A stretch of DNA of 35,761 bases from Verrucomicrobiota bacterium (lineage in GTDB: Bacteria; Verrucomicrobiota; Verrucomicrobiia; Limisphaerales; CANJSG01): contig JBBQXJ010000047.1 of NCBI GenBank assembly GCA_038209745.1, positions 1 through 35,761 on the forward strand, in the 5' to 3' direction. Each line of letters opens with the position of its first letter. Position 1 is the first letter of the stretch. The notes under the pieces are model-generated. The model was not told the DNA's origin and did no database searches. It saw only the letters and a list, made by a program, of their open reading frames with translations. The position numbers and the translations under genes are program-made. Positions 9,849-25,194 of this stretch are shown piece by piece.

Positions 9849-10745
9849 TCAGGAAGAGTGGCCGTCCGCCATCGCCTCGTAGCCGGACACAACATCGAAA
9901 AGCTCCTCGTCGATCCCGTTCTGGCGCAGCCGGTGGAAGATGCCATGAAGCGTCTCCAACAGTTCGTCGATGTTCTTGTCGGCGCGTTCCATCGCGGCCA
10001 AGCGGCTGGCGTTCTCGCTGGCGAGCGATTCGGCGCAGGCCCGAAAGAGCGAGACGAACAGATACTCGCCGATCAGTGCCTTCAGCGGGGCGGTTCCTCC
10101 ACCCAGGACTTCGGGAAGGTTCTTCGTCGGCCAGCGACGCTGCGCCAATTCCAACCGCCACTTTTCATCGAGCGGAAGCAACCGTTGGCTGACCGGCTCA
10201 TAGCCGGATCCGCTGGTGGGTCGGTTGTAGAAGAGATGGAGCTCCGTGACCTCATCGCGTCCTTGATGCGTCTGGTGCTCCACAAGGATCCGTCCAACGA
10301 GCGGGGTGATCGTTTTCACTGAACTGGGCACGGGCAAAAGACCCAGTGGAGCGATGCCGGAGTCGGTCAGCCGGGCATGGACCCGTTCTCCGACGGCCCA
10401 CACGTTCGGTTTTCCGGGCAGCGCGGCGAGGGCCTTCACCGCGAAGTCGGCGACCACGTCGTTGAACTGTCCCACCAATCCCTGGTCCGAACCGAAGACC
10501 ACCGCGCCGATCGCTGGCGAAGCTTTGGAAGGCGGTGGTTCGGGAGTCGTCGCGCCGCCAAGCCCCGCCCGAAAGCAGGCACCCAAGCCCAGTTCCACGG
10601 TGCGGTTGTAGTCGGCCAGCGCGCGGACGGATTTCTCGTATTGCCCGATGCTGGAGACGGCCAGCGCCTTCATCGTGCGCACGACCGATTGGAGATCGCC
10701 GGCACTGTGGATCTTCCGGCTGAGACTCGAGGTCGTGTCGCTCAT
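9849..10745 (-). CDS. atpG: N-type ATPase gamma subunit
   Basis: 'VVRTMKALA', 'GSDQGLVGQFN', 'ASENASRLAAMERA', 'RLRQNGIDEELFDVVSG'. Confidence 0.93.
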   Translation of the reverse strand: MSDTTSSLSRKIHSAGDLQSVVRTMKALAVSSIGQYEKSVRALADYNRTVELGLGACFRAGLGGATTPEPPPSKASPAIGAVVFGSDQGLVGQFNDVVADFAVKALAALPGKPNVWAVGERVHARLTDSGIAPLGLLPVPSSVKTITPLVGRILVEHQTHQGRDEVTELHLFYNRPTSGSGYEPVSQRLLPLDEKWRLELAQRRWPTKNLPEVLGGGTAPLKALIGEYLFVSLFRACAESLASENASRLAAMERADKNIDELLETLHGIFHRLRQNGIDEELFDVVSGYEAMADGHSS

Positions 10746-10779
10746 GATGGTGTGGAGTTTTGCGTCGTTTCGCCGCCGG

Positions 10780-11469
10780 TTAGAGCTTGGCCCCGAACAG
10801 CGATCCCACTCCGGCGGTCAAGGCCATGGCCAGAGCGCCCCAGAACGTCACGCGTGCCACGGAGATCCAGACGCTGGAACCACCGGCGCGGGCGGCCAAG
10901 GCACCCAGCAGGGCGAGGAACAGCAGGGAACTGAGAGACACCGTCCACACGAGCGCGGAAAGCGGCACGAACAGAACCAACATGAGCGGCAGCGCGGCCC
11001 CGACCGCGAAGGTTCCAGCCGATGCGAACGCCGCTTGCACGGGGCGGGCGCTCAGGCTGTCGCTGATCCCCAGTTCGTCGCGGGCGTGGGCCTCCAAGGC
11101 ATCCTTGGCCATCAACTGGGTCGCGACTTCTCTGGCGAGTCCGGCATCGAGCCCCCGGGATACGTAGATGGCAGCCAGCTCCGCAAGTTCGTGCTCGCCG
11201 TCGGTGGCGAGTTCCAAACGTTCCCGCTCCAGATCCGCGTTCTCGGTGTCGGATTGAGAGCTCACGGAAACGTATTCACCGGCGGCCATCGACATGGCTC
11301 CCGCAACCAGACCGGCAAGGCCCGCCACCAGCACGCTGTTCCGGCCGGATTCGGCGGCGGCGACCCCGACGATCAGGCTGGCGGTTGAAACGATGCCGTC
11401 GTTGGCTCCCAACACGGCGGCGCGAAGCCAGCCGATCCGGTGGGTGCGATGGGTTTCCGTGTGCTTCAT
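10780..11469 (-). CDS. VIT1/CCC1 family Fe2+/Mn2+ transporter
   Basis: 'WLRAAVLGANDGIVS', 'AGAMSMAAGEYVSV', 'HARDELG'; five hydrophobic segments. Confidence 0.93.
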   Translation of the reverse strand: MKHTETHRTHRIGWLRAAVLGANDGIVSTASLIVGVAAAESGRNSVLVAGLAGLVAGAMSMAAGEYVSVSSQSDTENADLERERLELATDGEHELAELAAIYVSRGLDAGLAREVATQLMAKDALEAHARDELGISDSLSARPVQAAFASAGTFAVGAALPLMLVLFVPLSALVWTVSLSSLLFLALLGALAARAGGSSVWISVARVTFWGALAMALTAGVGSLFGAKL

Positions 11470-11490
11470 GACGTGGGCTTTTGCACGGAG

Positions 11491-12057
11491 TTAAATGGAT
11501 GGCGTAGGGGCAGGCTCATTTCGGCGACTGGCCCACATCCAAGCGGCGACCACAACGAGGACAGCGATCGTGGCGAGGACGAATCCACCGGATGAAGGCA
11601 TGGCCAGCCATTTGAGAGACTCCTTGGCGGCACCCGTGCTGCCCAGTGACGGCGCACGGAATCCGGCCCACATCCAGAAGATGGAATAGCCCAGACCGCC
11701 AGCGCCAAGAGCGAGGCTGATGAGAGCCGTGACCAAGCGCGAAGCGCCGACCAGACACAAAACGATGATCAGGGCGACGGCGGTGGTGCCCATCCCTCCC
11801 GCGTGAAGGTGGGCCCGTTGCATGTAGTTCCAGGATTTGTCGATGACCGCCTTGCTGGCGATCGGGTCACCATTATAGATCGTTCCTTGGACTTCGGCCG
11901 CGTCGGCATTCAAGCGCGACTTGATGAGATCCTCGTTGAGCCCGAAGACGATTCCCATCCCCTGACCAAACAGGATTGTGAAGACCGCCAACATCAAACC
12001 CACCGAGGCGGCGCGTAGATTGGAGTGCAGGGAGTGTTTTGCGGGATTGGCGATCAT
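11491..12057 (-). CDS. Hypothetical integral membrane protein (about 4 TM)
   Basis: 188 aa with four hydrophobic stretches and the motif 'WNYMQRAHLHAGGMG'. Co-oriented, 21 nt upstream of the VIT1 start. Confidence 0.7.
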   Translation of the reverse strand: MIANPAKHSLHSNLRAASVGLMLAVFTILFGQGMGIVFGLNEDLIKSRLNADAAEVQGTIYNGDPIASKAVIDKSWNYMQRAHLHAGGMGTTAVALIIVLCLVGASRLVTALISLALGAGGLGYSIFWMWAGFRAPSLGSTGAAKESLKWLAMPSSGGFVLATIAVLVVVAAWMWASRRNEPAPTPSI

Positions 12058-22901: not shown

Positions 22902-23283
22902 GTTGAAAGGCGGCGAACCGACGCAGAAAACCGGTCTCCAGCTTCGCCATGACCGAGCGGGCGCTTTGCTCATGCTCGTCCACCGTCAAAAACTCCTTCT
23001 CCACCGTCTCGTGCAATTGGCCCAGATCCGTTCCACCGAACGCCCGGCGCACCGAAACGAGCACTTCGGGACCGGTCTTCACCAACACACCTTCGTCCAC
23101 CGCGACGAAGACTTCGCCCCCGGTTTCCGTTTCGTAGGTCAGAATGCCGGGCACGAGCGCGGCAACGCAGTCGAGTCGATGGGGCAGCAGCCCGAACGAA
23201 CCTTCCTGCGTCTCCACGACGACGCGCGAGACGTCGGCTTTCTCGGCGAAGACTTGGAAGGGCAGGAGAATCTTAAGCGTCAT
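22894..23283 (-). CDS. atpC: N-type ATPase epsilon subunit
   Basis: 'MTLKILLP', '[11 protein letters not shown]', '[10 protein letters not shown]', 'AKLETGF'. ATG 23283 overlaps the atpD end. Confidence 0.9.
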
Positions 23284-24808
23284 GCGCGGAGGCAGCCGAT
23301 TCGGACTGCGGTATTGGTTTGGCCTCGGGCAGTGAGGGCGTTGCTGGTTTCGAGTCGGGCTTCTTCGCCGACTTGTCGGGCGGCGCCTTTTTCTTCGCAT
23401 CGTCGATCGTCCCGATCATGTAGAGCGCGCTTTCGGGAAAGTCCTTGAATTCGTCATGCAGGATGCGCTCACAACCGTCCAGGGCATCCTTAAGGCCGAC
23501 GAGCTTTCCCTTGAGGCCGGTAAATTGTTCGGTCGTGAAGAACGGCTGGGTAAGGAAGCGCTCCAACCGACGCGCGCGCGCGACGACGTTCCGGTCCTCC
23601 GGCGAAAGCTGTTCCAGACCGAGCATCGCGATGATGTCCTTGAGTTCCCCATATTGCGCCAGCGTTCGCCGGATCTCCTGGGCCAAGGCGTAGTGCCGCT
23701 CGCCGACAATGCCGGGCGTCGCCATCTTGGAACTGGACTTCAACGGATCGATGGCCGGATAGAGACCCTCGCTGGCCCGCTTGCGCGAAAGCACGATCGA
23801 GGCGGAAAGATGCGAGAACGTATGCACCGCTGCCGGGTCGGTGAAGTCGTCGGCCGGCACATACACCGCCTGGAGCGAGGTGATGGCGCCCGTGTCGGTG
23901 TTGGCGATGCGCTCCTCCAAGCCCGACAGCTCGGTGCCCATCGTGGGCTGATACCCGAGGCGCGAGGGCATCTGTCCCATCAAGCCCGACACTTCCATGC
24001 CGGCCTGGATGAAGCGAAATATGTTGTCGATGAGCAGCAGCACGTCGCGGTGTTCGTCGTCGCGGAAATACTCGGCCATCGTGAGCGCGGCATGACCGAT
24101 CCGGAACCGACTGCCCGGTGGCTCGTTCATCTGGCCGAAGAGCATGACCATGGTCGGCAGCACCCCGGCGGCCTTCATGTCTCGGTAGAGCTCCTCGCCC
24201 TCGCGACAGCGTTCGCCGATCCCGCAGAAGATGCTCACGCCCTCCTGGTGCCCGATCATGTTGTGGATCATCTCGGTCAGCAGAACGGTCTTGCCCACGC
24301 CGGCTCCGCCGAAAAGTCCCGCTTTTCCACCGCGTTCCAGCGGCACCAGCACGTCGATGGCCTTGATCCCCGTTTCGAAAATCTCCGACCTGGTGGACCG
24401 CCGCGACAACGGTGGCGGTGCCCGATGGACGGACCGCCATTGGACGTCGGAAAACGCCCCCTCCCGGTCGATGGTGTTGCCGAAGACGTCGAACATCCGC
24501 GAGAGCACGCCCTTGCCGACGGGCGCCTTCAGTGGACCGCCGGTGTCCTTGACCGCCATCCCCCGGGCCAGCCCTTGGGTGGGCGTCAGCGCGATCCCCC
24601 GGACATGCCGCGCATCCCGCTGGGCCAGGACTTCGATGACGACGCGGTCCTCCGCTCCAGTCCTCAAGAGCGTGTGGATCGGCGGCAATGACCCGTCGAA
24701 CCGAACGTCCACGACGCTGCCCCGCACCGATACGATCACGCCGACGTTAGAAGGGACAGTCGAGCCTTCGGCCGTCGCGCCGGGGAGATTTTCGTCGTCG
24801 GAACCCAT
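23273..24808 (-). CDS. atpD: N-type ATPase beta subunit
   Basis: GGAGVGKT, 'GERCREG', '[11 protein letters not shown]', 'YPAIDPL'; the DELSEED loop reads EQLSPED. Confidence 0.96.
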
Positions 24809-24831
24809 TCAAATCGGGTGGCCCCAGAGAC

Positions 24832-25194
24832 CTAGACTTCGGCCAGCCACTTTCGCGCCTCGGCCAAATGGGTGTGATCGAAGTATTGGATCGTTGCCCT
24901 CGTGAACGGCTTGCAGAACGTCGCCATCCCGTGCTGCCACTTTTTGTCCCCGACCATCGCCAACCGTTCGATATCGCCAAAGTGTTTCACGTCGAACTTG
25001 ATGTCCTCCCAGAGGGCGCCGACCTCCCAGCCATGGAATCCGGTCATGTCGAAGAGCACCCGAATCTTCCGATGCAGCCTGACCAGGCGCTCGAACTCGG
25101 GCACAAAGTGCTCGTAGTCCGCCTTGGCCAGCTTCCCGCTGACCTCGACCGTCAAACGTTTTCCGCCGTCTTCTTCTTTGAGTTTGATTGGCAT
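24832..25194 (-). CDS. SpoIIAA-like (STAS/SEC14) domain protein
   Basis: 'VSGKLAKADY', 'FHGWEVGALWEDIKF', 'ERLAMVGD..W', 'EARKWL'. AAGGAG Shine-Dalgarno upstream; 23 nt before atpD. Confidence 0.88.
   Translation of the reverse strand: MPIKLKEEDGGKRLTVEVSGKLAKADYEHFVPEFERLVRLHRKIRVLFDMTGFHGWEVGALWEDIKFDVKHFGDIERLAMVGDKKWQHGMATFCKPFTRATIQYFDHTHLAEARKWLAEV

What the first reader, a model, noticed from the sequence alone, without database searches (positions are those of the whole stretch)
9849..25194. Complete N-ATPase operon split twice by co-oriented signalling and stress cargo
Seen: all nine N-ATPase genes are present and appear intact, in order D-C-Q-R-B-E-F...A...G, with no atpH. About 5.3 kb (15094-20387) of two-component genes separates atpF from atpA. 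About 2.8 kb (10746-13551) of cbpA-cbpM/membrane protein/VIT1 separates atpA from atpG. Every inserted gene is co-oriented, most junctions are short (49, 9, 21 and 34 nt; the longest are 219 and 163 nt), and I see no strong internal terminator or transposase. Established: N-ATPase operons are normally contiguous atpDCQRBEFAG. Inference: this may be an extended ion-homeostasis/stress system co-expressing a Na+-pumping ATPase with sensors, a J-domain chaperone pair and a metal exporter. It is the best candidate here for an undescribed system.
Basis: partly seen in the sequence, partly recalled or inferred. Interest (0 to 1): 0.82.

Follow-up and report, generated by a model that had tools for sequence, protein, structure and literature searches.

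The report
Cargo-laden split sodium-type ATPase operon
A second, sodium-type rotary ATPase operon in an uncultured sediment bacterium is intact but interrupted by seven passenger genes, two of which (an unnamed membrane protein and an iron-transporter relative) turn out to be regular residents of such operons, while the sensor and chaperone genes are one-off additions.

Summary
Independent contigs from 3-4 sediment metagenome runs bridge every junction, so this is not an assembly chimera.

The 188-aa membrane protein and VIT1 are not local accidents. Among 50 metagenome loci holding relatives of that protein, 23 carry N-ATPase genes, and in 16 it lies directly behind atpA. This unnamed four-helix family and VIT1 are recurrent in-operon cargo.

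Across 106 other genome-derived N-ATPase loci, atpA|atpG is open in 12 of 100 and atpF|atpA in 5 of 102. Cargo there includes VIT1, hibernation-factor-like proteins, NhaA and kdp.

No other locus examined has a PAS-kinase/receiver/hybrid-kinase cassette or a cbpA/MerR_2 pair inside the operon. Those two blocks are lineage-specific. Co-transcription is untested because no RNA run was listed.

Verdict: a new variant of a known kind, of moderate interest.

The parts
24832..25194 (-). STAS/SpoIIAA-like gene (120 aa), first gene of the block, 23 nt upstream of atpD
   Evidence: Pfam PF11964, E 7e-33. It has an AAGGAG Shine-Dalgarno sequence, and the 87 nt upstream are 45% GC. Homologues of 67-80% identity lie upstream of atpD in L012, L017, L030, L044, L064, L078, L158, L160 and L166.
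20388..24808 (-). atpD-atpC-atpQ-atpR-atpB-atpE-atpF, the first N-ATPase segment (atpD 23273-24808, atpC 22894-23400, atpQ 22563-22973, atpR 22256-22570, atpB 21559-22302, atpE 21238-21528, atpF 20388-21233)
   Evidence: All seven products exceed their NCBIfam 'alternate F1F0' or N-ATPase model cut-offs. AtpR matches PF12966 and AtpQ matches PF09527. The c subunit has Glu in helix 1 and IESTAIY in helix 2. AtpF carries an OSCP-like C-terminus.
20169..20387 (-). 219-nt spacer between atpF and the first kinase; a possible internal promoter region
   Evidence: Its GC is 52%, against 63% for the genome. It has no terminator-like hairpin, and its fold z-score is -0.64. It has no homologue in any fetched locus or elsewhere in the genome. 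In relatives, the atpF stop overlaps the atpA start as ATGA.
15143..20168 (-). Two-component cassette: PAS x4 histidine kinase (17898-20168), single-domain receiver (17458-17901) and REC-PAS-HisKA-HATPase-REC hybrid kinase (15143-17461)
   Evidence: Domains are from Pfam. No transmembrane segments are predicted and no DNA-binding output domain is present. ATGA stop/start overlaps link all three genes. GC is 58-59%. Homologous cassettes without atp genes occur in same-genus G002:C54, G005:C63 and G003:C89, and as a paralogue on own contig C6.
13552..15095 (-). atpA (N-ATPase alpha), isolated between the two cargo blocks
   Evidence: TIGR03324 scores 925 bits against a 750.5 cut-off. The start at ATG 15093-15095 follows from alignment of N-termini with relatives.
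12221..13542 (-). cbpA-like J-domain protein (12544-13542) and MerR_2 (CbpM/HspR-like) protein (12221-12547, 108 aa from the ATG that overlaps the cbpA stop)
   Evidence: The first has DnaJ + DnaJ_C domains, the second MerR_2 at E 1.5e-11. The pair is joined by an ATGA overlap. NCBIfam CbpA, CbpM and HspR equivalog cut-offs are not reached. This is the only CbpA-type gene in the genome. Of the 11 strain differences shown in MerR_2, 2 change the protein (only 40 of 194 differences were listed).
11491..12057 (-). 188-aa four-helix membrane protein of an unnamed family ('memb188')
   Evidence: No Pfam or NCBIfam hit. There are 1130 relatives in the 90%-clustered library and 286 representative clusters. 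R81, H83 and H85 are nearly invariant and Y124 is invariant. The AlphaFold2 model has pLDDT 95.9. It lies directly behind atpA in 16 of 50 metagenome loci. A leader motif upstream of its start is conserved.
10780..11469 (-). VIT1-family transporter (229 aa)
   Evidence: PF01988, E 3e-67. It aligns to Eucalyptus VIT1 6iu3 at E 8e-19, keeping the Asp, the Met and four Glu of the cytoplasmic metal-binding helices. It is 75-92% identical to VIT1 genes in other N-ATPase operons.
9849..10745 (-). atpG (N-ATPase gamma), last atp gene
   Evidence: TIGR03323 scores 414 bits against a 282 cut-off, over 1-285/285.

Best explanation
This is a real, intact, laterally acquired N-ATPase operon with a Na+-type c subunit. 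It lies in a chromosomal setting between tRNA-Thr and a DEAD-box helicase gene.

Its ground plan is a clade-specific variant of the canonical operon: STAS-atpDCQRBEF-atpA-[four-helix membrane protein]-[VIT1]-atpG. In this variant an unnamed membrane protein and a VIT1-type cation antiporter are regular in-operon passengers at atpA|atpG, the junction most often opened in N-ATPase operons.

In this lineage two further cassettes landed in the two most permissive junctions. Both are internally translationally coupled. A cytoplasmic PAS-kinase/receiver/hybrid-kinase phosphorelay, related to cassettes native to the genus, landed at atpF|atpA. A cbpA/MerR_2 co-chaperone pair landed between atpA and the membrane-protein leader.

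Inferred, not shown: all insertions are co-oriented, the junctions are short and no terminator is seen, so the pump is most likely still made from read-through transcripts that start upstream of STAS. A second promoter in the 219-nt spacer is possible.

Inferred: the pump hydrolyses ATP to keep up a Na+ (or H+) gradient when respiration is weak. VIT1, with the membrane protein, uses that gradient to expel Fe2+/Mn2+. This parallels the vacuolar V-ATPase/VIT1 pair.

The kinase and chaperone genes are hitch-hikers that share the pump's expression. A dedicated regulatory role for them is possible but unsupported.
For: Shown:
- All nine atp genes are full length and over curated cut-offs. A separate F-type alpha lies on contig C4 at 566 bits, under the cut-off.
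- The c subunit has E in helix 1 plus ESTxxY in helix 2. The motif is as described in Dibrova 2010 and PMC6688271 (passages).
- Every junction is bridged by contigs of 3-4 runs.
- N-ATPase alpha is sporadic. It was found in 3 of 41 relatives including G000, in 10 of 401 of the phylum sample and in 20 of 401 of the order sample. It was not found in the 6 same-genus genomes.
- Junction census on 106 other loci, gaps over 300 nt: D|C 1/81, C|Q 0/87, Q|R 0/72, R|B 2/72, B|E 2/96, E|F 0/99, F|A 5/102, A|G 12/100.
- Cargo found there: VIT1, S30AE/HPF-like, baeRF, DUF2254, PPK2, PepSY and kdpFABC-DE, plus NhaA and a MacAB pump.
- The membrane protein lies directly after atpA in 16 of 50 metagenome loci, and 23 of the 50 carry N-ATPase genes.
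- On the atpA tree, all operons with this protein or VIT1 at A|G fall in one 40-row, mostly verrucomicrobial clade (SH-aLRT 93) and are patchy within it.
- ATGA overlaps occur inside both cassettes, and relatives have an ATGA overlap at atpF/atpA. The roughly 30-nt leader before the membrane protein gene is retained.
- Kinase cassette homologues without atp genes occur in G002, G005 and G003.
- No terminator-like site lies in any junction.

From papers:
- EgVIT1 is an H+-coupled metal antiporter whose work depends on the vacuolar H+-ATPase (PMC7714665, passages).
- N-ATPase subunits of Nitrospira marina rose at low O2 (PMC8115632, passages).
Against: - There is no RNA evidence of any kind, so read-through is an inference.
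- The atpF/atpA translational coupling seen in relatives is lost. atpA now has only a distant GGAG, about 27-31 nt upstream by my own count on the printed junction.
- The 219-nt spacer is AT-richer (52% GC) and could carry its own promoter, so the block may be several transcription units.
- The membrane-protein HMM hit nothing in 91 genome-derived N-ATPase loci. The 'regular passenger' status therefore rests on metagenome contigs that were found with that protein as the query, an ascertainment bias. About ten of those loci show it with no atp gene nearby.
- The window's atp genes are not closest to the operons that carry it: atpA is 76-81% identical to them, against 88% to L037 and 83% to L009.
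- The EgVIT1 proton-path Glu72 position is Gly in this VIT1 group, so the coupling ion is unknown.
- The Burkholderia pseudomallei N-ATPase c-ring binds H+ despite two carboxylates (PMC5376962), so Na+ specificity from motif alone is not certain.
- In three runs the contig covering 10678-12341 has about a third of its neighbours' depth. This may mean that part of the population differs there.
Confidence: 0.65

Rival explanations
1. Integrated stress/ion-homeostasis system. The PAS phosphorelay senses redox or energy state and the CbpA/CbpM-like pair assists or tunes the pump. All 17 genes would then form one selected functional unit.
For: - All genes are co-oriented with short junctions and no terminators.
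- The inserted genes are intact and the architecture is stable in a roughly 1%-diverged strain across runs.
- Of the 11 MerR_2 differences shown, 9 are silent.
- N-ATPase subunits respond to low O2 in Nitrospira marina, and PAS kinases are typical O2/redox sensors (established knowledge).
- Two-component genes recur near N-ATPase operons: kdpDE inside L067, and kinases beside atpG in L010, L040 and L048.
Against: - No other locus has these cassettes in the operon: 0 of 106 genome-derived loci and 0 of 23 metagenome loci.
- The cassette has no DNA-binding output domain.
- Homologous cassettes in the genus sit in unrelated contexts.
- PAS kinases are very numerous in this genome, with more than 25 tblastn hits, so proximity is cheap.
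Confidence: 0.2
2. Neutral erosion. A dispensable, horizontally acquired second ATPase is being broken up by unrelated insertions. The three atp segments are now separate, poorly coordinated units, and the cargo has no functional tie to the pump.
For: - The N-ATPase is sporadic and was not found in same-genus genomes.
- The atpF/atpA coupling is lost, and the spacer is AT-rich and may hold a promoter.
- L097 shows a decayed relative with STAS, a 64-aa atpA remnant, the membrane protein, VIT1 and atpG.
- L143-L145 carry a truncated copy of the membrane protein.
Against: - All nine atp genes match their models end to end with no stops.
- Every insertion is co-oriented and precisely intergenic.
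- The same layout persists in a diverged strain.
Confidence: 0.13
3. Assembly chimera: the contig joins fragments of different genomes at conserved atp sequences.
For: This is a metagenome-assembled draft of 140 contigs with 2.6% contamination. Depth peaks over conserved atp parts show that other organisms' ATPase reads are present.
Against: Single contigs from X1, X2, X4 and X9 cross each atp/cargo boundary with at least 31 nt on both sides. Two haplotypes share the same order.
Confidence: 0.02

Closest known systems
Canonical N-ATPase operon atpDCQRBEFAG (Dibrova, Galperin, Mulkidjanian 2010; PMC2881411, abstract and passages read)
   Same: All nine genes are present in the same order, including the hallmark atpR and atpQ. 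There is a b-delta fusion instead of atpH. The c subunit has the Na+-type motif. The operon is a second copy beside an F-type operon. Its distribution is sporadic, as expected of lateral transfer.
   Different: Seven foreign genes (8.1 kb) lie inside the operon at two junctions, and a STAS gene lies in front. The paper mentions only one- and two-gene insertions, in Acaryochloris and Cyanothece. The inserted genes are not named in the text, or in the supplementary file that could be searched (file 2 was not searchable).
Verrucomicrobial/metagenomic N-ATPase operons atpDCQRBEF-atpA-memb188-VIT1-atpG
   Same: They have the same membrane protein (83-88% identity) and the same VIT1 (83-89%) at the same junction in the same order. 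The leader before the membrane protein gene is conserved.
   Different: They lack the kinase cassette and the cbpA/MerR_2 pair. Several carry an HPF-like gene at atpR|atpB that this window lacks.
Eukaryotic vacuolar V-ATPase plus VIT1/Ccc1 (EgVIT1, PDB 6iu3; review PMC7714665, passages read)
   Same: A rotary ATPase builds the ion gradient that a VIT1-family antiporter uses to move Fe2+ out of the cytoplasm. The transporter here keeps the pore Asp and Met and the four Glu of the metal-binding helices.
   Different: Here the two are encoded in one bacterial operon. The position of the proton-path Glu72 is Gly, so the coupling ion may differ. No transport data exist. This is an analogy of working principle, not a membership claim.
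E. coli cbpA-cbpM operon / HspR-controlled cbpA operons (recalled from general knowledge)
   Same: A J-domain protein without a zinc finger is followed by a translationally coupled small MerR_2-type protein.
   Different: NCBIfam equivalog cut-offs are not met for CbpA (234 against 403), CbpM (22 against 138) or HspR (37 against 105). The pair is embedded in an ATPase operon with only 9 nt to atpA, which leaves no room for an own promoter outside the atpA coding sequence.
Passenger genes at atpA-X-atpG-Y-atpD junctions of Saccharibacteria F-type operons
   Same: The junctions around atpA and atpG of a rotary ATPase operon act as an insertion hotspot for co-oriented small genes.
   Different: It concerns a different ATPase type and phylum. 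The cargo there is small, fast-evolving acidic proteins, not transporters, kinases or chaperones.

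Membership tests
N-ATPase (alternate F1F0) operon | atpR (urf2) present | tested here: met
   PF12966, E 2e-29; TIGR03165 at 101.5 bits against a 55.5 cut-off
N-ATPase (alternate F1F0) operon | atpQ (gene 1) present | tested here: met
   PF09527, E 6e-16; TIGR02230 at 142.5 bits against a 46.7 cut-off
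N-ATPase (alternate F1F0) operon | Catalytic and stator/rotor subunits belong to the N-type clade | tested here: met
   TIGR03305, 03166, 03306, 03322, 03321, 03324 and 03323 are all over their cut-offs across the full model length. atpA groups with N-type alphas on the tree.
N-ATPase (alternate F1F0) operon | No atpH; long atpF with a delta-like C-terminus | tested here: met
   AtpF is 281 aa with an OSCP hit at residues 179-241. No delta gene lies in the block.
N-ATPase (alternate F1F0) operon | Contiguous gene order atpDCQRBEFAG | tested here: not met
   The order is kept, but 5.3 kb lies between atpF and atpA and 2.8 kb between atpA and atpG. This is a feature of layout, not of the enzyme.
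N-ATPase (alternate F1F0) operon | Present as a second copy beside a canonical rotary ATPase | tested here: met
   An F-type alpha lies on G000:C4:8073-9554 at 566.5 bits, below the N-type cut-off.
N-ATPase (alternate F1F0) operon | c subunit with Na+ ligand set (Glu in helix 1, ESTxxY in helix 2) | tested here: met
   AFAEGRAV and IESTAIY are present in the translation. Actual ion specificity is not testable here.
VIT1/Ccc1 iron (manganese) transporters | PF01988 fold with a pore Asp/Met and a Glu-rich cytoplasmic metal-binding domain | tested here: met
   PF01988 at 227 bits. Aligned to 6iu3 at E 8e-19, D24, M61 and E83/E86/E94/E97 match Asp, Met and Glu of EgVIT1. The EgVIT1 residue numbers are recalled, apart from Asp43 and Glu72, which are named.
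VIT1/Ccc1 iron (manganese) transporters | Proton-path Glu (EgVIT1 Glu72) | tested here: not met
   The aligned position is G53. Instead, E65 is nearly invariant in this group.
CbpA/CbpM co-chaperone pair | J domain + DnaJ_C without a zinc finger, followed by a coupled MerR_2 protein | tested here: met
   DnaJ, DnaJ_C and MerR_2 hits; ATGA overlap.
CbpA/CbpM co-chaperone pair | NCBIfam equivalog cut-offs for CbpA (NF007618) and CbpM (NF007617) | tested here: not met
   233.9 bits against 403 and 21.9 against 138. HspR (NF047375) scores 37 against 105. The pair is filed as 'CbpA/CbpM-like' only.
Two-component phosphorelay | HisKA + HATPase_c kinases and receiver domains | tested here: met
   Pfam hits on all three proteins; an H-box is present in the first kinase.
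Two-component phosphorelay | Output (DNA-binding or enzymatic) domain that would tie it to the operon | tested here: not met
   The receiver protein is REC only. The hybrid kinase is REC-PAS-HisKA-HATPase-REC.
Styrene-oxide-isomerase / MAPEG-like four-helix membrane proteins (considered for the 188-aa protein) | Shared fold clearly above background | tested here: inconclusive
   Foldseek found no hit at E <= 0.001. The best VIA scores were Z 9.9 for 8pnu and 4bpm, below the roughly 13 that the tool gives as background for helical bundles. The Atlas lead to PF27139/PF26512 scored only 0.86-0.87.

The most novel reading that the evidence does not exclude
The unnamed four-helix protein (conserved R-x-H-x-H and Tyr) is a dedicated partner of ATP-driven cation pumps. 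It is found behind atpA in N-ATPase operons and beside a small P-type ATPase in other loci. Together with VIT1 it would turn the N-ATPase into a bacterial counterpart of the vacuolar V-ATPase/VIT1 pair: an ATP-energised Fe2+/Mn2+ extrusion unit for anoxic, iron-rich sediments. In this lineage a redox-sensing PAS phosphorelay and a CbpA/CbpM pair would have been recruited into the same transcript. The whole 15-kb block would then be one energy-stress operon.
Probability: 0.15. Interest if true: 0.8.

Novelty: new variant of a known kind. Interest (0 to 1): 0.52.

Why it matters
The cellular role of N-ATPases is still described as largely unexplored (PMC5376962). Suggestions range from Na+ export to a standby enzyme at low membrane potential (bioRxiv 10.64898/2026.10.01.756066).

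The genes that evolution repeatedly places inside and beside these operons are direct hints at that role. Inside them are a VIT1 antiporter, NhaA, hibernation-factor-like proteins and an unnamed membrane protein. In the flanks are PPK2, phosphoketolase and acetate kinase. These hints point to ATP-driven maintenance of ion gradients and cation detoxification during energy limitation.

The unnamed family gives a concrete protein to test for binding to the pump. This window is the most heavily loaded example seen. It shows how much foreign DNA the atpF|atpA and atpA|atpG junctions tolerate.

Databases that recognise N-ATPases by strict gene order and gaps under 1 kb (ProAD methods) may mis-file such loci.

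Tried and rejected
- RNA evidence: no RNA holder was listed among 22 runs, so expression could not be examined.
- Complex prediction of VIT1 with the membrane protein gave 'no answer' (score 0.00). This is neither for nor against binding.
- Fold of the membrane protein: Foldseek against PDB gave nothing at E <= 0.001. VIA wide gave only background-level helical-bundle matches. A profile comparison with AtpR gave probability 1.2%. Pfam hit none of 62 family members convincingly.
- Insertion footprints: no direct or inverted repeats flank either cassette, only paralogue-level matches between PAS domains and between alpha and beta. No transposase or integrase was found. Rfam found only the tRNA at E < 0.06. 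The spacers have no homologue in any fetched locus or in the genome.
- I recalled that the Burkholderia cenocepacia low-oxygen (lxa) locus holds an N-ATPase. The passages read show only a 'cation-transporting ATPase' there and down-regulation of the F-type operon, so I dropped the idea.
- Same-genus synteny could not be reconstructed. The flanks of the homologous kinase cassettes and of VIT1 in G002, G003 and G005 map to scattered contigs of G000 at 33-66% identity.
- GC content does not separate native from foreign. The atp genes are 61.5-65%, the kinase cassette 58-59% and the genome 63.3%.
- The sigma-70 promoter scan found one site inside the hybrid kinase gene, fewer than in shuffles.
- Print status, from literature searches with 'N-ATPase' plus VIT1, vacuolar iron transporter, hibernation, polyphosphate kinase or phosphoketolase (top 15 of 244 listed, none holding 'N-ATPase'): I found no paper describing these cargo genes. 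bioRxiv supplements and file 2 of Dibrova's supplement could not be searched.

Full report
**What is in the window**

The window is a whole 35,761-nt contig (G000:C47) of a 4.58-Mb draft genome with 140 contigs, 92% complete. I infer that the genome is verrucomicrobial, for two reasons. First, two loci of the order sample (L159, L165) have the contig lengths and gene layouts of two records titled Verrucomicrobia/Verrucomicrobiota (L067, L012). Second, earlier unchecked notes on this genome say the same.

Outside 9849-25194 the contig carries ordinary chromosomal genes:
- holA;
- a TetR-MacAB-OEP efflux unit;
- tRNA-Thr (7269-7343);
- a secreted repeat protein;
- a DEAD-box helicase;
- prs, the L25 gene, pth, the S6 gene, ssb and the L9 gene.

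**Checking the observation**

All nine N-ATPase products exceed the curated cut-offs of the 'alternate F1F0' models and match them end to end. AtpR and AtpQ are present. AtpF ends in a delta-like stretch, and there is no atpH.

The c subunit has Glu in helix 1 and ESTxxY in helix 2. This is the Na+ ligand set described by Dibrova et al. and quoted in PMC6688271. An F-type alpha on contig C4 shows that this is the 'second' ATPase.

Between atpF and atpA lie three genes:
- a four-PAS histidine kinase;
- a receiver-only protein;
- a REC-PAS-HisKA-HATPase-REC hybrid kinase.

All three are predicted cytoplasmic, and none has an output domain.

Between atpA and atpG lie four genes: a DnaJ/DnaJ_C protein, a MerR_2 protein, a 188-aa membrane protein without any family hit, and a VIT1-family transporter. 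A STAS/SpoIIAA-like gene precedes atpD by 23 nt.

Reading the junctions base by base gave the following:
- The three two-component genes are joined by ATGA overlaps.
- cbpA and MerR_2 are also joined by an ATGA overlap. The MerR_2 protein therefore starts at 12547 and has 108 aa.
- atpA starts at the ATG at 15093-15095. That start gives [14 protein letters not shown], which matches MNTAPDNLQSVFDR and similar N-termini in relatives.

My own count on the printed kinase-to-atpA junction gives 47-49 nt.

Other checks were negative:
- No terminator-like site lies in a junction, and there are fewer such sites in the region than in shuffles (12 against 16.2).
- The 219-nt spacer has no unusual fold.
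- No repeats flank the cassettes.
- No mobile-element gene is present.

**Is it an assembly artefact?**

Twenty coded sediment metagenome runs hold at least 40% of the sampled words of 10500-20499. I laid the contigs of four of them on 9000-26000. Single contigs cross every atp/cargo boundary:

| Stretch | Boundaries crossed | Runs |
|---|---|---|
| 10678-12341 | atpG, VIT1, membrane protein, MerR_2 | X1, X2, X4 |
| 12313-14089 | MerR_2, cbpA, atpA | X1, X4 |
| 14776/14837-16274 | atpA, hybrid kinase | X1, X2, X4 |
| 16247-18450 | the three two-component genes | X1, X2, X4 |
| 18426/19424-20697 | kinase, atpF | X1, X2, X4 |

X9 also crosses kinase|atpF, with contig 19466-20534.

X9 is letter-identical and may be the source sample. 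X1, X2 and X4 carry a variant with a few differences per kilobase, so two haplotypes share the layout. The runs may come from one campaign.

One oddity remains. In X1, X2 and X4 the contig covering 10678-12341 has about a third of the depth of its neighbours. No run on record as RNA was listed, so expression is untested.

**Comparison with other N-ATPase loci**

The N-ATPase is sporadic among relatives:
- The six same-genus genomes searched (78-93% complete) show no alpha over the cut-off.
- 3 of 41 relatives have one, counting G000.
- 10 of 401 genomes of a phylum sample have one.
- 20 of 401 genomes of an order sample have one.

I fetched 80 loci from species-representative genomes, 2 from the first relatives, 9 from the phylum sample and 17 from the order sample. 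Two of the last set duplicate earlier ones. That leaves 106 distinct loci besides the window.

Junctions with more than 300 nt of extra DNA were counted over loci that hold both flanking genes:

| Junction | Open / loci with both genes |
|---|---|
| D\|C | 1 of 81 |
| C\|Q | 0 of 87 |
| Q\|R | 0 of 72 |
| R\|B | 2 of 72 |
| B\|E | 2 of 96 |
| E\|F | 0 of 99 |
| F\|A | 5 of 102 |
| A\|G | 12 of 100 |

So the two junctions opened in the window are the two most often opened elsewhere. Only L028 has both open, with 369 and 620 nt.

The cargo found at these junctions:
- A|G: VIT1 (L012, L086); S30AE/HPF-like (L015 with a baeRF protein, L028, L062, L064, L068); DUF2254 (L034); an unknown 211-aa ORF (L078).
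- B|E: VIT1 (L020, L064).
- R|B: HPF-like (L073).
- F|A: PepSY (L060); a pyridine-nucleotide oxidoreductase, an aldehyde-dehydrogenase fragment and PPK2 (L042); the whole kdpFABC-kdpDE set on the opposite strand, 8.9 kb (L067).
- D|C: an M48 peptidase/TerB protein (L163).

None of the 106 loci has a co-oriented kinase cassette or a cbpA/MerR_2 pair inside the operon.

A rough clustering of ORFs in the fetched flanks was made over 83 sources, with greedy ORF calls that are noisy at this GC content. It shows further recurrent neighbours:

| Neighbour | Sources |
|---|---|
| PPK2, just after atpG | 17 |
| Phosphoketolase | 16 |
| Acetate kinase | 12 |
| Heavy-metal P-type ATPase | 8 |
| DUF2254 | 8 |
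| A second VIT1 group | 7 |
| Class-I aldolase | 6 |
| Crp-like regulators | 6 |
| STAS | 5 |

In order-level relatives the usual upstream arrangement is STAS, aldolase, a PMM-like hydrolase and then atpD. In the window, as in L017, STAS abuts atpD.

**The 188-aa membrane protein**

- It has 1130 relatives at E <= 0.001 in the 90%-clustered library and 286 representative clusters in the 50% library.
- No Pfam family matches: 0 convincing hits on 62 aligned members.
- R81, H83 and H85 are nearly invariant and Y124 is invariant.
- AlphaFold2 with 62 sequences gives a confident four-helix membrane bundle, pLDDT 95.9 and pTM 0.89.
- Structure searches give no match above what helical bundles reach by chance. 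The best are Z 9.9 to styrene oxide isomerase and to a MAPEG enzyme.
- It is not related to AtpR by profile comparison.

Its genomic contexts are informative. A metagenome scan with it as query returned 50 loci, and 23 of them carry N-ATPase genes:
- In 16 it lies within about 100 nt behind atpA. These are L096, L097, L099, L100, L101, L105, L107, L108, L109, L112, L115, L137, L138 and L143-L145. The last three are truncated to 57 aa, and L097 lies behind an atpA remnant.
- VIT1 and atpG follow it in L096, L099, L101 and L138; L100 ends inside VIT1. They also follow it on the partial contigs L124 and L127.
- atpG follows it directly in L105, L109, L111, L112 and L115.
- In L108 the junction holds the membrane protein, a HlyD-MacB-ABC pump, VIT1 and an antisense receiver gene, 6.2 kb in all.
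- In L103 NhaA sits between atpA and atpG, and the membrane protein follows atpG and PPK2.

Where no atp gene is near, its neighbours include a small P-type ATPase (L118 with a double USP protein, L120, L130) and VIT1 in the reverse order (L122, L134).

There are caveats:
- These loci were found with this protein as the query.
- Its HMM hit nothing in 91 genome-derived N-ATPase loci, so the association is confined to a sub-lineage.
- On an atpA tree of 104 rows (quick search, LG+G4, SH-aLRT only), every operon with this protein or VIT1 at A|G lies in one 40-row, mostly verrucomicrobial clade (support 93). They are interspersed there with contiguous operons, and starred branches force at least three changes.
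- The window's nearest atpA is L070 (support 87), which is contiguous.
- The membrane protein and VIT1 are more alike between these operons (70-92% identity) than atpA (76-81%) or atpG (64-72%). This fits either slower change or exchange of the module between operons.
- About 30 nt before the gene's start are conserved between the window and L096, L099, L105 and L115 (GACCAAA.CCAA.AAAG). The cbpA/MerR_2 pair was therefore inserted upstream of an existing leader.

**VIT1**

The protein aligns with the crystallised Eucalyptus VIT1 (6iu3, E 8e-19). It keeps the pore Asp and Met and the E-x2-E-x7-E-x2-E set of the cytoplasmic helices. The position of Glu72 is Gly. The review PMC7714665 links Glu72 to proton movement. 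It also describes EgVIT1 as an H+-coupled metal antiporter that depends on the vacuolar H+-ATPase (passages read). The analogy is that a rotary pump makes the gradient and VIT1 spends it to remove Fe2+/Mn2+. This is my inference.

**Origin of the two lineage-specific cassettes**

Kinase-receiver-hybrid kinase cassettes of the same design, without atp genes, occur in same-genus genomes. In G002:C54 and G005:C63/C254 the receiver is 62% identical and the kinases 54-76% identical over parts. A paralogue lies on contig C6 of G000 itself.

In G003:C89 a receiver and a hybrid kinase (40% identity) lie 4.9 kb upstream of a cbpA-like gene (48%) on the same strand, with a GrpE-like gene between them. 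This may mean that the kinase cassette and the J-protein were neighbours before they became interleaved with atp genes. The identities are low and the rest of the synteny is not conserved, so I leave this as a lead.

cbpA here is the only CbpA-type gene of the genome. Of the 11 strain differences shown in MerR_2, 9 are silent. That count rests on the 40 of 194 differences that one search listed.

**How it most likely works**

Shown: the genes are intact, the order and the junctions are as described, the layout is real, and the membrane protein/VIT1 module recurs.

Inferred:
- Transcription starts in the AT-rich 87 nt upstream of STAS (45% GC, good Shine-Dalgarno sequence) and reads through the cargo. 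A second start in the 219-nt spacer (52% GC) is possible.
- The pump hydrolyses ATP to hold a Na+ or H+ gradient when respiration is weak. This is consistent with higher N-ATPase abundance at low O2 in Nitrospira marina. It is also consistent with the fermentation, polyphosphate and hibernation genes around other N-ATPase operons.
- VIT1 uses that gradient for cation efflux.

The kinase and chaperone genes share the transcript, but nothing ties them functionally to the pump.

**Known or new?**

The N-ATPase operon, its lateral transfer and the existence of small insertions are in print. In searches, and in the passages read, I found no description of the following:
- recurrent cargo at atpA|atpG;
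- the unnamed membrane-protein family;
- VIT1, NhaA or HPF-like genes inside these operons;
- a kinase cassette or a cbpA pair inside one.

Supplementary material that I could not read may bear on this.

I rate the window as a new variant of a known kind. The general finding, cargo hotspots and a new pump-associated family, is more interesting than the local one.

Noticed in passing
L067 (= L159) 1135-10001: A Verrucomicrobia MAG has the whole kdpFABC operon plus kdpD/kdpE, 8.9 kb on the opposite strand, inserted exactly between atpF and atpA of its N-ATPase operon.
   Followed up: partly
L103 3324-4943; L108 931-6523: In L103 an NhaA Na+/H+ antiporter sits between atpA and atpG. In L108 a HlyD-MacB-ABC efflux pump, VIT1 and an antisense receiver gene fill 6.2 kb of the same junction.
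   Followed up: partly
L013 12677-13552, L010 16573-19017, L013 15802-17010 and their clusters: PPK2 lies directly downstream of atpG in 17 of 83 sources. Phosphoketolase (16 sources) and acetate kinase (12) recur in N-ATPase flanks. This suggests a link to substrate-level ATP supply and polyphosphate. The ORF calls were rough.
   Followed up: partly
L118 5944-9959; L120 2041-4692; L130 4503-7534: Outside N-ATPase operons, the 188-aa membrane protein lies beside a small P-type ATPase. In L118 it lies within a run of double USP, membrane protein, P-type ATPase and DUF302.
   Followed up: partly
L097 6189-9139: This locus is a decayed relative. STAS is followed by a 64-aa remnant of the atpA C-terminus, then the membrane protein, VIT1 and atpG, with no other atp genes upstream.
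   Followed up: no
window 10678-12341: In runs X1, X2 and X4 the contig covering VIT1, the membrane protein and the MerR_2 3' end has about one third of the depth of the flanking contigs (7.5 against 21-27 in X1). Eleven of its 15 differences cluster in 12248-12311, which may mark a strain polymorphism or a recombination edge.
   Followed up: no
L180 (G003:C89) 2-8335: A same-genus genome has a receiver and a hybrid kinase, then unknown ORFs, a GrpE-like gene, a T2SSE-type ATPase and a cbpA-like gene, all on one strand. This is a possible ancestral neighbourhood of the window's two lineage-specific cassettes.
   Followed up: partly
window 12058-12090 and L096, L099, L105, L115 upstream of the membrane protein gene: A purine-poor leader motif (GACCAAA.CCAA.AAAG) is conserved immediately upstream of the membrane protein's start codon. 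Its function is unknown.
   Followed up: no
window 7849-9738 (-): This 629-aa secreted protein has a signal peptide and repeated GDL(L/V)SDxGxIVxxN motifs, and no Pfam hit. It lies 110 nt downstream of atpG on the same strand, between the operon and tRNA-Thr 7269-7343.
   Followed up: no
L096 3084-3404, L112 3190-3510, L073 4133-4453: A 106-aa S30AE/HPF-like gene lies between atpR and atpB in the operons that carry the membrane protein. The same weak family recurs at atpA|atpG in proteobacterial operons.
   Followed up: partly
L163 3244-7121: An order-level relative has 3.9 kb between atpD and atpC, including an M48 peptidase with a TerB domain.
   Followed up: no
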